Below, in pieces: positions 8,446 through 22,106 of a DNA stretch of 32,000 nt. Position 1 is the first letter of the stretch. Each line of letters starts with the position of its first letter. A program made the position numbers and the translations under genes. The DNA is from Nitrosococcus oceani ATCC 19707. Lineage in GTDB: Bacteria; Pseudomonadota; Gammaproteobacteria; Nitrosococcales; Nitrosococcaceae. Where the stretch lies: NCBI RefSeq assembly GCF_000012805.1, contig NC_007484.1:3120001-3152000 (forward strand), in the 5' to 3' direction. The notes below the pieces were generated by a model that worked only from the letters and a program-made list of their open reading frames with translations, did no database searches and was not told where the DNA came from.

Positions 8446-8453
8446 GAAGCAAG

Positions 8454-8473
8454 TTCAGGACTTACGCAAAAGC
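8454..8473. repeat. Left copy of an inverted-repeat pair (TTCAGGACTTACGCAAAAGC); partner at 22034-22052
   Basis: It lies 8 nt after the last CRISPR repeat. The reverse complement recurs at 22034-22052 (GCTTTGCGTAAGTCCTGAA, one A shorter). Weaker similarity continues about 15-20 nt inward on both sides. Confidence 0.75.
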
Positions 8474-8882
8474 GTATTTAAGGGTCCCCATGGTGTTGAA
8501 AGAGCAGTAGAGTTTAGGACATGAGCATATCGCTAACGTGCTTGGATGATTGCCGATATATCTAGCTGGTGGTGGACAAGCGCAGAATCCGGGAGATGCA
8601 CCATCAGGCGGGGATACGTTATTTAGACTTTACGCCGGTGATGATGGTGGTCAACGCCTATTAAGATTTCAAAATATTCCGTTTTTAAGAGGCTTAATAA
8701 TGTTCATTATTTCACAAGATTGACATGGATTAATCTACAGAGAGCGCCTTAATTCCAAGCTATCATCCTTAAGGTGAAGAAGGAGAAGAAACAAGAAAAT
8801 AACTGCATTAAATCGGCTGATGAGAAATAGCTCATTAATGTGATAGGCCCAGGCAAAGGCAATAGCTCGGAGGAGGAGAAAA

Positions 8883-10355
8883 ATGGCAAATACATATCTG
8901 GTGGAGAGGTTCTGTGCTGTCTTTGCGGCCTTGATTATGGTTGTGTTCCTTACGTCTACCCAGGCCATGGCACAGTCCTGTGAGAATGCCTGCGGGGATC
9001 AGCATCACTTATGCCTTGATGACTGCACCGCACATTCACCACACAACATTTGTGTTCCCCTCTGCCGGGCCGATAGAGCCCGTTGTCTAGAAGACTGCAA
9101 TAATCCTATACCCCATGCTCCAGAAAACGTGACTTTGGTAGAGCGGGAAGCCACCTCAATTGAGCTACGGTGGAGGGATAGGGCGGACAATGAAGATGGT
9201 TATCAATTGCTGCGGCGGGTAGGTGCCAGCGGCCCCTGGTCTATCCAGGCTAGCTGGGGTCCTTGGAGCGGGACGACAACCTATACAGACACCGGGTTAT
9301 TGCCAGATACGTTGTATTGCTACCGTGTGCGTGCCTTTAACCGTAATGGGGGTAACAACCCGCTTAGTCGGTGCGCCTTCACTAAAGATGGCAATGGATA
9401 TGCCGTGTGGCGTGCCCAGATCATTTTTCATACCGCCAATGTTTCCAATGCCAACACAGACGATAAAGTTTATGTCAACCTCAACGGGTACGCCAACGCT
9501 GTCCCGCGCAACAATTCGACATGGCTGGATTATGGCCGCAATGACTTCGAGCGGGGAACCACCTATGCTTATGATCTCAATCTCGATTACCTCGGTGAAA
9601 TAGGCGATATCAACCAAATCAACATTTCTAAAACAGGTGATGATGGATGGTGTATTCAGGACTTCACTTTGCAGGTCAATGGGCTCGATCTATTTACGCA
9701 AGACTTTAGTAACCTTTCTGGGGGTTGCCTGTGGCTGGACAGTGAAGGTGGGCACTCCCGGACCCATATTGTGTCGCATGGGGCACTGCGCGCACATCCG
9801 GATTGGAACAGCTACAACCATACCGGGGCCAAACTGCTTCTAGCGAATAACGGGATTAAGAATGAGGAGATGGTAAGTCGCCTTGAGGGCATGGTTGGCG
9901 ACGATATCCATGATAATAAACTTTATTGGGGGCATCTCCATGGTCCGGCTGTCGAGGTGAGCTACGGCTGTCCGGCTGGTGCGGCCTCTTGTCAGACTCT
10001 CCACATCGATCTCGATCTCGCCGCTAGTGCCCCTGGCCCCAACCCCGAAGTAGACGTGGACTTCGATCTTACCTTTTCCTGTGATAATCGTCAGCTACTG
10101 ATTACTTCATCGAACGTTGAGATCGATGCAGATTCAAATTGGTTCTGGGAAATATTGTCCCTAGGGTTGATCAACTTCATTGATAACGCCGTCGAAGAGC
10201 GAATTGAGAAAGGCTGGAAAGCCATTACCGAAGTGATCGAGGTCGGCGCTGACTGCCGAATCTCGGTGGATACCGAGGGTAATCTCCTAATCGAAGAAGG
10301 TGAGTCCTTCAACAGAGCCAAGAATTTACCTAAGCTTGACTTAAAAGTCAGATGA
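8883..10355 (+). CDS. Secreted Cys-rich protein with a fibronectin type III domain and a PLAT/LH2-like beta-sandwich region (function unknown)
   Basis: 490-aa ORF with a hydrophobic signal-like N-terminus (FCAVFAALIMVVFLTSTQAMA) and a Cys-rich stretch. The FN3-like segment is PENVTLVEREATSIELRWRDRADNEDGYQLLRR...YCYRVRAFN. The domain assignment downstream of FN3 is tentative. Confidence 0.6.
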   Translation: MANTYLVERFCAVFAALIMVVFLTSTQAMAQSCENACGDQHHLCLDDCTAHSPHNICVPLCRADRARCLEDCNNPIPHAPENVTLVEREATSIELRWRDRADNEDGYQLLRRVGASGPWSIQASWGPWSGTTTYTDTGLLPDTLYCYRVRAFNRNGGNNPLSRCAFTKDGNGYAVWRAQIIFHTANVSNANTDDKVYVNLNGYANAVPRNNSTWLDYGRNDFERGTTYAYDLNLDYLGEIGDINQINISKTGDDGWCIQDFTLQVNGLDLFTQDFSNLSGGCLWLDSEGGHSRTHIVSHGALRAHPDWNSYNHTGAKLLLANNGIKNEEMVSRLEGMVGDDIHDNKLYWGHLHGPAVEVSYGCPAGAASCQTLHIDLDLAASAPGPNPEVDVDFDLTFSCDNRQLLITSSNVEIDADSNWFWEILSLGLINFIDNAVEERIEKGWKAITEVIEVGADCRISVDTEGNLLIEEGESFNRAKNLPKLDLKVR

Positions 10356-10423
10356 TGATGAATCCTCCGCACCCTGGCGAACTACTACGTGAAGACGTAA
10401 TTGCCGAGCTTGGCTTGACGGTT
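10352..10423 (+). pseudogene. 5' fragment of a HigA-like HTH antitoxin gene, truncated at the mer cassette junction
   Basis: The translation MMMNPPHPGELLREDVIAELGLTV parallels the N-terminus of the intact HigA at 15177 (RPVHPGEILREDYLKPLEMSV). Similarity is then lost as the sequence enters the antisense 3' end of merA. Confidence 0.5.
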
Positions 10424-10445
10424 TATGACCATTTCCTCCTCTTGG

Positions 10446-11852
10446 CTATCCCGCACAGCAGGACAGCTGTGTCACATCTTTAGTGAAAGCCTGGGCGCAG
10501 AGCTTGAGGCCCTCCACCATGGTTAGGTAAGGGAAGGGCTCATCGCCGATCTCCTGCACCGTCATGCGCGTGCGCAGCGCCATCACGGCGGTCTGGATCA
10601 GCTCTCCAGCCTCTCCTGCCACTGCTTGGACGCCTAGCAACCGACCGGAATCCCGCTCGGCTACCATCTTGATGAACCCAGCGGTGTCGAAGTTCACCAG
10701 CGCACGGGGTACATTCTCCAGATCCAGCACCCGGGATTCCACGTTAAAGCCCTGCTCAAGTGCCTGGGCTTCCGTCAAGCCGACGGTGCCCACCTGGGGG
10801 TCAGTAAACAGTACGCCTGGCATGGCGCTGAGGTCCAGTGTAGCTTCGCCTCCCGTCATGTTGACGGCGGCCCGGCTGCCCCCGGCAGCGGCGACATAGA
10901 CAAACTCCGGCTGATCGGTACAGTCACCGGCGGCATAAATACCCGGTACCGTGGTTTGCAGATGCTCATCCACTAGAATCGCTCCCCGGGCAGTTTCCAC
11001 GCCGATGCTTTCCAGGTCCAGGGCTTCGGTGTTGGGTGTCCGTCCGGTGGCTACCAGCAGTTGCTCCGCTCGCCATGTCCCGGCGTTCGTCTCCAGCACA
11101 AACTCCCGGTCCCTGTAGTCCACCCGGCTCGCCTGGGTCTCTTTCAGCACCTGGATGCCCTCGCGGCAAAACGCCGCCTCCAGGGCCTCACCCACCGCCG
11201 GGTCTTCCCTAGAAAGCATTCGGCTCCGAGCCAGCACGGTGACCTGGCTGCCCAGCCGGGCGAACGCCTGGGCCAGCTCCAGGGCGACAAACCCAGCGCC
11301 GATGACTAGCAACCGTTCGGGTACGGACTCCAGTGTCAGGGCACGGGTGGAGGTCAGGTAAGGCGTATCGGCCAGTCCCGGCACCGGCGGCTCTGCCGGG
11401 CGGGCGCCGGTGCCAATAAAGGCGCGATCGAAGCGAAGGGTCTGTTCACCCCCCTCAGTCAGCGTGACCGCTAGCTGATGCGCATCCATGAATCGGGCCT
11501 CTCCGTGCAGCACCGTGACGGCGGGATGGCCTCGCAGAATCCGCTCATACTTGGCATCACGCAGTTCTTCGACACGGCCCTGCTGTTGGGCAAGCAGCGC
11601 CGCCCGATCGATGACCGGCCTCTGGACACTGATTCCCCCGTCGAAGGGGCTTTCCTTGCGTAGATGGGCAATATGGGCAGCGCGAATCAGGATCTTCGAA
11701 GGCACACAGCCGGTATTCACGCAGGTGCCACCAAGGGTACCGCGCTCGACTAGGGTGACGCGGGCGCCGCGCTCGGCCCCTTTCAGGGCGGCGGCCATGG
11801 CCGCGCCACCGCTGCCGATCACGGCGATGTGCAGGTTGTTTTCATGACTCAT
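10446..11852 (-). CDS. merA: Mercuric reductase MerA, short form without an N-terminal HMA (NmerA) domain
   Basis: Features: FAD-binding motif [15 protein letters not shown], redox-active [13 protein letters not shown] and C-terminal CC (LSCCAG). I place the start at ATG 11852 ([11 protein letters not shown]), overlapping the merF stop. The track start at 11924 runs through merF in another frame. Confidence 0.92.
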
Positions 11853-21437: not shown

Positions 21438-21639
21438 GGCCTCAATGCTTTTCTCATTGGGTCGGTGGCAAGTGGCTAGGTGGTGTTGCAAGCACCCTCT
21501 AGCCGCGCTTATTTTACCGCGAATTTTGCCCGCCGCCAACATCACTTTATGGGACCCTCGCGCTCGATGCGCCGTTCCACTTCGCACTCTCGCTAGGGGG
21601 TCGCCGTACTTCCCTGTACTCCTTCAACGCGCTTGGATG

Positions 21640-21960
21640 ATTGCCAATATATCGGTTGGTCAGCCCGATCAACGATACACTGACGCACTTTGCGGGTCAC
21701 TGCGAGAGATTGAACCACGATGCCATCAATGGCTACATTTAAGACCCCGAGGGCGATGGTGCATCAGAATTCCACGCAAGCCCCACAACAAGTGTGCGGC
21801 TTGCGTTGGAAGATCAAGGCTATTGCACCGCGAAGACAAAGAGCTCACCGGGCTGGAGCGCCGCCCATGCCCTAAGGCGCCCATTCAGCGCAATCACATC
21901 GGCTGCGCGTCCTTGGTCTGAATCAGACTCAAAGCGCTCGCCGAACAAACCGCACAGACT
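21640..21960 (-). pseudogene. Debris of a PIN-domain (VapC-like) toxin gene with frameshifts and stops
   Basis: Minus-strand fragments in different frames include ...NGRLRAWAALQPGELFVFAV (compare the VapC pattern DP.V.AWL.AQP...L..SAVT) and LAVTRKVRQCIVDRADQPIYW (compare LVTRN..DF......NPW). The assignment is weak and from memory only. Confidence 0.3.
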
Positions 21961-22033
21961 GTCTATCAGCTCAAGCACGGTTTATTGGATGACCACCTTA
22001 TTAAGCAAATCAAAAACCCCTCTCTAAAAATGA

Positions 22034-22052
22034 GCTTTGCGTAAGTCCTGAA
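22034..22052. repeat. Right copy (inverted) of the TTCAGGACTTACGCAAA(A)GC repeat
   Basis: GCTTTGCGTAAGTCCTGAA is the reverse complement of 8454-8473 minus one A. It lies 26 nt before the orphan CRISPR-like repeat. Confidence 0.75.
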
Positions 22053-22078
22053 GTTGAGAGGTAGAACCACCACTCGTG

Positions 22079-22106
22079 ATTCACTGCCGCACAGGCAACT
22101 TAATCC
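22079..22106 (+). CRISPR. Orphan degenerate type I-F repeat in the same orientation as the array (probable displaced terminal repeat)
   Basis: ATTCACTGCCGCACAGGCAACTTAATCC matches the array repeat at 19/28. Positions 2-18 differ only by one stem change. The other mismatches cluster at the 3' end, as is usual for terminal repeats. No further repeat lies 60 nt on either side. Confidence 0.6.

What the first reader, a model, noticed from the sequence alone, without database searches (positions are those of the whole stretch)
8446..22106. A ~13.6 kb block bounded by inverted repeats separates the CRISPR array from what looks like its degenerate terminal repeat
The sequence TTCAGGACTTACGCAAAAGC begins 8 nt after the seventh repeat (8454-8473). 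Its reverse complement occurs at 22034-22052. A solitary I-F-type repeat follows 26 nt later (22079-22106). It matches the array repeat at 19/28, has the same orientation as the array, and has mismatches concentrated at its 3' end as in typical terminal repeats.

Removing 8454-22052 would join repeat 7, a 34-nt spacer and the degenerate repeat. That would restore an 8-repeat array.

The intervening DNA is a mosaic of accessory cargo: the mer cassette, higBA, two TnpB elements, the STAND NTPase, the KfrA-like plasmid-type gene and toxin debris. The simplest reading is that a mobile or recombined block landed in the last spacer.

Weak points:

- The reconstructed spacer is 34 nt, not 32.
- I see no target-site duplication.
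- No transposase or integrase other than TnpB is present in the block.
Basis: partly seen in the sequence, partly recalled or inferred. Interest (0 to 1): 0.62.

Follow-up and report, generated by a model that had tools for sequence, protein, structure and literature searches.

The report
Old transposon block splits CRISPR array
A 13.6 kb block of plasmid-like genes, bounded by the decayed ends of an ISPlag1-like (IS701-family) insertion sequence, transposed into the oldest spacer of the Nitrosococcus oceani type I-F CRISPR array and cut off its terminal repeat; this is a clear but ordinary case of a known kind of event.

Summary

- **Boundaries.** The "inverted repeats" are the two termini of an IS701-family insertion sequence close to ISPlag1 (CAGGACTTACGCAAA at 8456-8470, inverted at 22036-22050).
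- **Target-site duplication.** Of 25 other copies with these termini, 12 carry a perfect 5-bp duplication, against about 0.7 expected.
- **Empty site.** Removing the element and one AAGTT joins repeat 7, a 33-nt spacer (32 if A22079 is an inserted base) and the solitary repeat.
- **Solitary repeat.** It resembles the terminal repeats of arrays in two sister species.
- **Two copies.** The end fragments overlap by 28 nt with 2 mismatches, so they come from two IS copies in direct orientation. That fits a composite transposon or an IS-mediated plasmid fusion.
- **Current state.** The genome holds no intact transposase of this family, so the block is a fossil.
- **Strain comparison.** Every N. oceani contig I could reach is 100% identical, so no empty site was seen.

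Verdict: a new member of a known kind, of low to moderate interest.

The parts
7927..8057 (+). AT-rich leader of the type I-F array, downstream of csy4/cas6f
   Evidence: Sequence. It is conserved together with the first repeat in G002, G001 and G003.
8058..8445 (+). CRISPR array: 7 identical 28-nt repeats and 6 intact 32-nt spacers
   Evidence: Rfam CRISPR-DR4, 44.6 bits each. PMC7285500 Table 3 gives the same repeat and 6 spacers.
8446..8455 (+). Left 10 nt of the split oldest spacer (GAAGCAAGTT). The last 5 nt, AAGTT (8451-8455), are the left copy of the target-site duplication.
   Evidence: Sequence. The IS terminus is fixed at C8456 by 41 copies elsewhere.
8456..8562 (+). Left fragment of an ISPlag1-like IS701-family IS: IRL (CAGGACTTACGCAAAAGCG...), 5' untranslated region, and the first ~14 transposase codons (ATG 8521; MSISLTCLDDCRYI)
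   Evidence: Alignment with G002 copies and the intact cyanobacterial IS. The terminus equals the ISPlag1 IR in PMC2464740.
8564..8660 (+). Debris of a gene for an ATPase-like protein that is intact on the organism's own 40-kb plasmid. It marks the illegitimate junction that truncated the left IS copy.
   Evidence: 88% identical to C2:34462-34555 and 90% to C1:1756753-1756843, with copies on the G001 and G002 plasmid contigs.
8883..10355 (+). Cargo: fn3 + PLAT domain protein
   Evidence: Pfam.
10446..12616 (.). Cargo: GC-rich minimal mer cassette, merA (-), merF (-), merR (+)
   Evidence: Pfam. Gene calls with PF11431 MerF. GC 0.64. 77-83% nt matches to mer genes on plasmids.
12954..14252 (+). 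Cargo: glycosyltransferase split by an in-frame stop
   Evidence: Pfam.
14886..15479 (+). Cargo: higB-higA toxin-antitoxin pair
   Evidence: Pfam HigB-like_toxin at 8e-17; weak HTH_3 match.
15502..15792 (-). Truncated tnpB remnant
   Evidence: Pfam Cas12f1-like_TNB. 72-74% nt identity to other genomic copies.
15929..18184 (-). Cargo: TPR-rich (STAND-like) protein
   Evidence: Pfam TPR_12 and related families.
18261..19313 (-). Cargo: KfrA-like plasmid DNA-binding protein
   Evidence: Pfam KfrA_N at 6e-28. 77% nt identity to a gene on Nitrosococcus halophilus plasmid pNHAL01.
19657..20121 (-). Cargo: glyoxalase/VOC-family protein
   Evidence: Pfam.
20177..21625 (-). Complete stand-alone TnpB element (tnpB 20259-21587). 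One of about 7 near-full-length copies in the genome. Its left end abuts the right IS701 fragment exactly.
   Evidence: Pfam. Copy alignments fix both ends.
21626..22050 (+). Right fragment of the IS701-family IS. It holds transposase aa ~5-40 and aa 246-337, with an internal deletion of ~205 codons, frameshifts and a stop. IRR is at 22036-22050.
   Evidence: tblastn against the intact 337-aa transposase: 60% identity over aa 265-337, 53% over aa 11-40. Translations. Alignment.
22051..22055 (+). Right copy of the 5-bp target-site duplication, AAGTT
   Evidence: Sequence. The 5-bp duplication is typical of this IS group.
22056..22078 (+). Right 23 nt of the split oldest spacer
   Evidence: Sequence. 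10 + 23 = 33 nt once one AAGTT is removed.
22079..22106 (+). Degenerate terminal repeat of the array (ATTCACTGCCGCACAGGCAACTTAATCC)
   Evidence: Similar terminal repeats occur in G003, G002 and other I-F arrays.

Best explanation
An element bounded by the left and right ends of an ISPlag1-like IS701-family insertion sequence transposed into the pentamer AAGTT. That pentamer lay inside the oldest (trailer-end) spacer of the type I-F CRISPR array of Nitrosococcus oceani.

**What is shown**
- The staggered cut duplicated AAGTT.
- The event left repeat 7 plus 10 nt of spacer on one side, and 23 nt of spacer plus the degenerate terminal repeat on the other.

**What is inferred**
- The element was not one simple IS. 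Its two end fragments overlap by 28 nt and differ at 2 positions, so they derive from two IS copies in direct orientation.
- These two copies flanked plasmid-like DNA: kfrA, higBA, a mer cassette, and a piece of a gene from the cell's own plasmid.
- This is the layout expected of a composite transposon moved by its outermost ends. It is equally the layout of a plasmid fused into the chromosome through the IS, either as a cointegrate or by homologous recombination with a resident copy.

**Later decay**
- The left copy was cut down to 107 nt.
- The right copy lost about 205 codons and its first ~80 nt, where a TnpB element now sits.
- No intact transposase of this family remains in the genome, so the block is now immobile.

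**Consequence for the array**
- The array keeps 6 usable spacers. Only the oldest spacer was destroyed, so the effect on immunity is probably close to neutral.
For: - **Termini.** CAGGACTTACGCAAA occurs at 8456-8470 and inverted at 22036-22050, the only two copies in the genome.
- **Same terminus elsewhere.** It begins 41 elements in cyanobacteria, gamma- and betaproteobacteria and other groups. Their outside flanks diverge exactly before CAGG.
- **Published match.** ISPlag1 (IS701 group, 337-aa transposase) has the IR CAGGACTTACGCAAGCACGC... (PMC2464740).
- **Intact relative.** A 1055-bp element (L067) encodes a 337-aa protein scoring 409 bits for NF049921, IS701 family, against a cut-off of 250.
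- **Window relics.** Window 21650-21739 and 21765-22041 match that protein at 53-60% identity, ending in the IRR. Window 8521-8562 encodes its N-terminus.
- **Duplication.** AAGTT lies directly outside both termini. Of 25 other copies, 12 have a perfect 5-bp duplication against 0.7 with shuffled partners.
- **Terminal repeat.** The G003 mini-array is leader, repeat, 32-nt spacer, then GTTCACTGCCGTACAGGCAACTTATAAG. The G002 array ends in GTTCACTGCCGCACAGGCAGTAAAGTTA and holds CTGCC...GGCAG-type older repeats. N. oceani AFC132 uses that same repeat type (PMC7285500).
- **Two copies.** 8535-8562 and 21626-21653 match at 26/28 in direct orientation.
- **Plasmid-like cargo.**
Against: - **No empty site.** Every other N. 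oceani sequence I could reach (C-27-type and NS58-type assemblies, several Logan runs) is 100% identical over the parts it covers. N. oceani AFC132 could not be reached.
- **Spacer length.** The restored spacer is 33 nt, not 32, unless A22079 is read as a 1-nt insertion in the repeat.
- **No protospacer.** None was found for the restored spacer.
- **Two-copy inference.** It rests on a 28-nt overlap with 2 mismatches only.
- **Plasmid origin incomplete.** No plasmid replication or partition genes other than kfrA are present, so the plasmid-fusion variant is not shown.
- **Classical IS701.** Classical IS701 members make 4-bp duplications (PMC2266710). The 5-bp rule here comes from my own count on this subgroup.
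Confidence: 0.88

Rival explanations
1. A single IS701-family copy inserted into the spacer. All 13 kb between its ends accumulated later by nested insertions and illegitimate recombination inside that one copy. No composite transposon or plasmid fusion was involved.
For: - The outer termini and duplication are equally explained.
- The interior is a visible mosaic of different GC content with two TnpB elements. One TnpB element sits exactly at the start of the right fragment.
Against: - The left fragment runs 28 nt past the point where the right fragment begins, and the two differ at 2 of those 28 positions. One split copy would show no such overlap.
- IS200/IS605-type TnpB elements are not known to make duplications (established knowledge).
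- The sequence on the far side of the TnpB element (at or below 20176) is not IS701-like.
Confidence: 0.15
2. The two IS ends come from two independent IS insertions or a rearrangement, and the AAGTT match is chance. The solitary repeat is then a relic of an older or different array (for example the AFC132-type array that PMC7285500 suggests was replaced), not the end of the present array.
For: - The solitary repeat is closer to the AFC132/G002 repeat variant (22/28) than to the present repeat (19/28).
- An inversion breakpoint relative to G002 lies only 1-36 nt to its right.
Against: - A 5/5 match at positions fixed in advance by the IS termini has a chance of about 1 in 1000.
- The restored spacer length falls within 1 nt of the array's 32-nt period.
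- In G002, one array mixes both repeat variants and ends in the CTGCC type, so a variant terminal repeat is normal in this genus.
Confidence: 0.05
3. The inverted repeats are the recognition sites of a programmed inversion or excision switch that moves the 13.6 kb segment.
For: Only the presence of inverted repeats at the borders.
Against: - No invertase, integrase or intact transposase lies in or near the block.
- The repeats are standard IS termini found in many phyla.
- All reachable assemblies agree with the window wherever they overlap it.
Confidence: 0.02

Closest known systems
ISPlag1 (IS701 family) of Planktothrix agardhii, Christiansen et al. 2008, PMC2464740
   Same: - Same terminal sequence (CAGGACTTACGCAA...).
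- Single transposase of about 337 aa with the C-terminal ...RWKIEEFHRE... motif; the window has ...LRWKIKAI / LHREDK...
- In Planktothrix, two copies flanking a gene cluster drove a rearrangement and left short relics with the inverted repeats.
   Different: - The window holds only two decayed fragments (107 nt and 425 nt), and no intact copy exists in the genome.
- Protein identity to an intact relative is about 55-60%.
- Here the outcome is an insertion into a CRISPR spacer rather than a deletion.
Composite transposons and IS-mediated replicon fusions (two direct IS copies flanking cargo, duplication at the outer ends)
   Same: - IRL at one border and IRR at the other.
- Remains of two copies in direct orientation.
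- Plasmid-type and resistance/toxin-antitoxin cargo between them.
- One target-site duplication around the whole unit.
   Different: - Both IS copies are badly truncated, so the original structure is inferred.
- No donor copy of the block was found on any plasmid in PLSDB.
IS and prophage insertions into CRISPR-Cas loci (e.g. Sheng et al. 2023, PMC10359306)
   Same: A mobile element interrupts a CRISPR-Cas locus.
   Different: That work concerns mostly cas genes and loss of immunity. Here only the oldest spacer is hit, and the cas genes and six spacers stay intact.
Tn7-like transposons that target CRISPR repeats, and type I-F3 CRISPR-associated transposons (PMC11837452)
   Same: A large cargo-carrying transposon sits next to or within a CRISPR array of a type I-F system.
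   Different: - No tnsA/B/C or tniQ genes.
- Insertion is in a spacer at an AT-rich pentamer with a 5-bp duplication.
- The ends are IS701-type. This is not a member of that group.

Membership tests
IS701-family insertion sequence (ISPlag1-like subgroup, NCBIfam NF049921) | Encodes an IS701-family DDE transposase | tested here: met
   Met as a relic only. Window 21765-22041 is 55-60% identical to aa 246-337, and 21650-21739 is 53% identical to aa 11-40, of an intact 337-aa transposase. That transposase scores 409 bits against a cut-off of 250 for NF049921. The G002 homologue of the window's 5' part hits NF049921 at 1.5e-12.
IS701-family insertion sequence (ISPlag1-like subgroup, NCBIfam NF049921) | Terminal inverted repeats of the subgroup at both ends | tested here: met
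   CAGGACTTACGCAAA at 8456-8470 and inverted at 22036-22050. The same terminus occurs in 41 copies elsewhere and in ISPlag1.
IS701-family insertion sequence (ISPlag1-like subgroup, NCBIfam NF049921) | Short target-site duplication of the length typical for the group | tested here: met
   AAGTT on both sides. Of 25 other copies, 12 have a perfect 5-bp duplication against 0.7 expected. Classical IS701 members make 4 bp (PMC2266710), so the 5-bp rule is specific to this subgroup.
IS701-family insertion sequence (ISPlag1-like subgroup, NCBIfam NF049921) | Intact, autonomous element | tested here: not met
   There is an internal deletion of about 205 codons, plus frameshifts and stops. No other copy exists in G000, and only relics exist in G002 and G003.
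Composite transposon / IS-mediated cointegrate | Two copies of the same IS flanking the cargo | tested here: inconclusive
   The two fragments are in direct orientation and overlap by 28 nt at 26/28 identity, which argues for two copies. Both are heavily truncated.
Composite transposon / IS-mediated cointegrate | One target-site duplication around the whole unit | tested here: met
   AAGTT at 8451-8455 and 22051-22055.
Terminal (degenerate) repeat of a type I-F CRISPR array | Same orientation as the array, conserved 5' part and stem, degenerate 3' end | tested here: met
   Positions 2-18 match the repeat with one change, and the 3' end has diverged. G003, G002 and several metagenomic I-F arrays end in the same GGCA(A/G) form.
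Terminal (degenerate) repeat of a type I-F CRISPR array | One spacer length away from the preceding repeat | tested here: met
   After removing 8456-22055 the gap is 33 nt, or 32 if A22079 is an inserted base. The array spacers are 32 nt.
CRISPR-associated or CRISPR-targeting Tn7-like transposon | tnsA/tnsB/tnsC/tniQ genes and Tn7-type ends | tested here: not met
   Pfam scans of the 20 main ORFs of the block found none.
Tn3/Tn21/Tn5053-type mercury-resistance transposon | tnpA/tnpR or tni genes with the family's terminal repeats around the mer operon | tested here: not met
   Only merR, merF and merA are present, with no such transposase genes. The inverted repeats are IS701-type.

The most novel reading that the evidence does not exclude
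The block is the fossil of a whole small plasmid (kfrA, higBA, mer, and a gene also found on the cell's present plasmid) that fused into the chromosome through an ISPlag1-like element at the trailer end of a CRISPR array. If so, the old end of arrays may serve as a neutral landing pad where large cargo can settle without disabling immunity. That idea could be tested across genomes by looking for arrays separated from their terminal repeats.
Probability: 0.3. Interest if true: 0.35.

Novelty: new member of a known kind. Interest (0 to 1): 0.25.

Why it matters
- **Corrects the published array description.** The N. oceani array is reported as 6 spacers and 387 bp. It originally had at least one more spacer and a terminal repeat that now lies 13.6 kb away.
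- **Explains the gene placement.** This accounts for why mercury-resistance, toxin-antitoxin and plasmid-type genes sit directly beside the array.
- **Gives a practical annotation rule.** A solitary degenerate repeat some kilobases from an array, together with IS ends and a duplication, marks a split array. Array-finding tools miss this.
- **Scope.** It does not reveal a new mechanism.

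Tried and rejected
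1. **IS630 or IS1 origin of the ends.** The G002 copy (L030) has an IS1-like gene and an IS630-type HTH ORF nearby. The window ORF 21794-22027 shows no similarity to them. Those are separate insertions in G002.
2. **Mer transposon, CRISPR-associated transposon or integrase-borne island.** No matching genes were found.
3. **tRNA-Met call at 13874-13965 as an integration site.** It lies inside the glycosyltransferase gene, is 92 nt long, and was taken as spurious.
4. **Search for an empty site.**
   - Csy3, the SBP, the permease, the RRM protein and HigB were looked up by identity. All contigs found are 100% identical to the window, and several break at the array or the TnpB element.
   - N. oceani AFC132 was not reached.
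   - Sister species are not syntenic to the right of the array.
5. **Metagenome scans.** The right-junction pattern found nothing. The terminal-repeat pattern found only unrelated I-F arrays.
6. **Protospacer searches.** The restored spacer gave no match in phages or plasmids. No self-targeting by any spacer was found.
7. **Donor copy of the block.** PLSDB gave only piecemeal hits to mer genes and kfrA.

Full report
**Setting**

The window is G000:C1:3120001-3152000 of a 3,481,691 bp chromosome with a 40,420 bp second contig. Several lines identify the organism as Nitrosococcus oceani of the C-107/ATCC 19707 type:
- The sizes match, by my recollection, the published genome of that strain.
- The repeat and spacer count match PMC7285500 Table 3.
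- Contigs from two N. oceani-type assemblies are 100% identical to the window.
- A Nitrosococcus halophilus plasmid is the best plasmid hit.

The left third of the window is a type I-F locus:
- cas2/3 and cas1 on the minus strand.
- csy1-4 on the plus strand.
- A leader, then seven identical 28-nt repeats (8058-8445) with six 32-nt spacers.

**The observation**

- The perfect inverted match is 17 nt (8454-8470 and 22036-22052).
- The 17-mer occurs only at these two places in the genome.
- The solitary repeat ATTCACTGCCGCACAGGCAACTTAATCC lies at 22079-22106, in the array's orientation, and matches 19/28.
- With at most 1 mismatch, its 17-nt core is found genome-wide only in the array, here, and in a decayed mini-array upstream of cas1.

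**What the inverted repeats are**

Two partial homologues in the sister species G002 first pointed to an insertion sequence.
- They share the repeat plus about 110-190 nt of inward sequence that reads as the N-terminus of a transposase.
- The G002 reading hits NCBIfam NF049921, IS701 family, at 1.5e-12.

A scan of one genome per species for CAGGACTTACGCAAAAGCG settled the identity.
- It found 41 copies in cyanobacteria, Halothiobacillus, Competibacter, Burkholderiales and other groups.
- In all of them the outside flank diverges exactly before CAGG, which fixes the terminus.
- Most copies are 92-230 nt miniature derivatives.
- One (L067) is an intact 1055-bp element. Its 337-aa transposase scores 409 bits for NF049921 against a cut-off of 250.

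The literature gives the same terminus (CAGGACTTACGCAAGCACGC...) for ISPlag1 of Planktothrix. That element belongs to the IS701 group and also has a 337-aa transposase (PMC2464740).

The window holds relics of this transposase at both ends.
- Window 21650-21739 matches aa 11-40 of the intact protein at 53% identity.
- Window 21765-22041 matches aa 246-337 at 55-60% identity, ending inside the right repeat.
- About 205 codons are missing, and frameshifts and a stop are present.
- Window 8521-8562 encodes the first ~14 codons after the left repeat.

The block's borders are therefore IRL and IRR of an IS701-family element.

**The target-site duplication**

With the termini fixed at C8456 and G22050, the five bases outside each end are AAGTT (8451-8455 and 22051-22055).
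AAGTT and its complement AACTT differ only in the middle base, which hid the direct repeat.
- Among 25 other copies with both ends and enough flank, 12 have a perfect 5-bp duplication. The expectation is 0.7 with shuffled partners and 0-2 at shifted registers.
- The duplicated pentamers are AT-rich, as AAGTT is.
- Chance for a 5/5 match at predefined positions is about 0.001.

The two flanks were therefore contiguous when the element arrived.

**The restored site**

Removing 8456-22055 gives repeat 7, then GAAGCAAGTTGAGAGGTAGAACCACCACTCGTG (33 nt), then the solitary repeat.
- If G22078 is the repeat's first base and A22079 a 1-nt insertion, the spacer is exactly 32 nt.
- The solitary repeat is a credible terminal repeat.
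  - G003 has a cas-less mini-array: leader, repeat, 32-nt spacer, then GTTCACTGCCGTACAGGCAACTTATAAG.
  - The G002 array ends in GTTCACTGCCGCACAGGCAGTAAAGTTA and contains older repeats of the CTGCC...GGCAG type.
  - N. oceani AFC132 uses that repeat type throughout.
  - Other I-F arrays in metagenomes end in GGCAAC forms.

**One copy or two**

The left fragment (8456-8562) extends 28 nt beyond the point where the right fragment starts (21626). The overlap matches at 26/28, in direct orientation.
- A single split copy would show no overlap.
- The right fragment begins exactly at the end of a complete TnpB element (20177-21625). The ends of that element are fixed by five other genomic copies.
- The sequence beyond the TnpB element's far end is not IS701-like.
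- The left fragment is joined at about 8563 to a 97-nt piece of a gene that is intact on the cell's own plasmid.

I infer two IS copies in direct orientation around the cargo. That is the layout of a composite transposon or of a plasmid fused through the IS. Which of these occurred cannot be decided from the present data.

**Cargo**

The cargo is a mosaic of uneven GC content. It holds:
- An fn3/PLAT protein.
- A minimal merR-merF-merA cassette.
- A glycosyltransferase with an in-frame stop.
- higBA.
- A tnpB remnant.
- A TPR/STAND-like protein.
- A kfrA gene 77% identical to one on N. halophilus plasmid pNHAL01.
- A glyoxalase-family gene.

These rest.

**Present state and age**

- No other IS701-family sequence exists in G000, and G002 and G003 hold only relics. 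The block cannot move by its own ends.
- Every N. oceani sequence I reached agrees with the window at 100% identity where it overlaps. One assembly contig covers the left junction and the cargo as far as window position 17306 (C-27-type) and beyond that to the glyoxalase gene. Others cover the right junction.
- G002's array is not interrupted.
- The insertion therefore postdates the split from that sister species and predates the spread of the C-107-like clone.

**Limits**

- No empty site was seen.
- Metagenome scans did not find the junction.
- No protospacer was found for the restored spacer.

**Comparison with known systems**

- This is an IS-mediated insertion into a CRISPR array, a known kind of event (PMC10359306).
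- It is not a CRISPR-associated or CRISPR-targeting Tn7-like transposon, because it has no tns genes and the ends and duplication are IS701-type (PMC11837452).
- The IS is a new, decayed relative of ISPlag1.
- The finding is solid, tidy and useful for annotation, but mechanistically ordinary.

Noticed in passing
window 22107-22142; G000:C1:254292-254315: N. oceani (G000) and its sister species G002 differ by a large inversion. One breakpoint lies in the 36 nt right after the terminal repeat. The other lies in an intergenic spot at about 254.3 kb. In G002 the array's terminal repeat abuts the homologue of 254292->253253, and the RRM gene abuts the homologue of 255477->254315.
   Followed up: partly
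L015 (G003:C1:3676350-3679477), rc positions ~1500-1690: G003 keeps the leader, one repeat, one 32-nt spacer and a degenerate terminal repeat directly after the NUDIX-like gene, with no cas genes. This looks like a cas-operon deletion that left an orphan mini-array.
   Followed up: partly
window 3638-3738 (minus strand): Two degenerate I-F repeats lie between cas1 and csy1. An earlier follow-up in this scan already treats them as a regulatory mini-array.
   Followed up: no
L042-L082 (genome-contig scan): The ISPlag1-type terminus heads families of 92-230 nt miniature elements with 5-bp duplications in distant phyla. Examples are ~104 nt in a Halothiobacillus MAG (6 copies) and ~150 nt in Stenomitos.
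   Followed up: partly
L012 (G002 array), positions 2258-2765: The G002 array mixes two repeat variants (CCGCC...GGCGG and CTGCC...GGCAG) plus one hybrid repeat. This suggests past recombination between arrays of the two types seen in N. oceani C-107 and AFC132.
   Followed up: no
window 20177-21625 and about 7 other places in G000: The stand-alone TnpB element is 1449 nt with sharply defined ends (TTGGAGTTTGCGGC... and ...CCCTGTAYTCCTTC on the plus strand). It has about 7 near-full copies at 77-95% identity, plus many solo left-end pieces of ~40-75 nt.
   Followed up: partly
window 8564-8660; G000:C1:1756753-1756843; G000:C2:34462-34555: The same ~95-nt piece of a plasmid-borne ATPase-like gene occurs as debris at two chromosomal sites in G000. 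The same piece also occurs at one chromosomal site in G002, as well as in the plasmid-contig gene of G001 and G002.
   Followed up: partly
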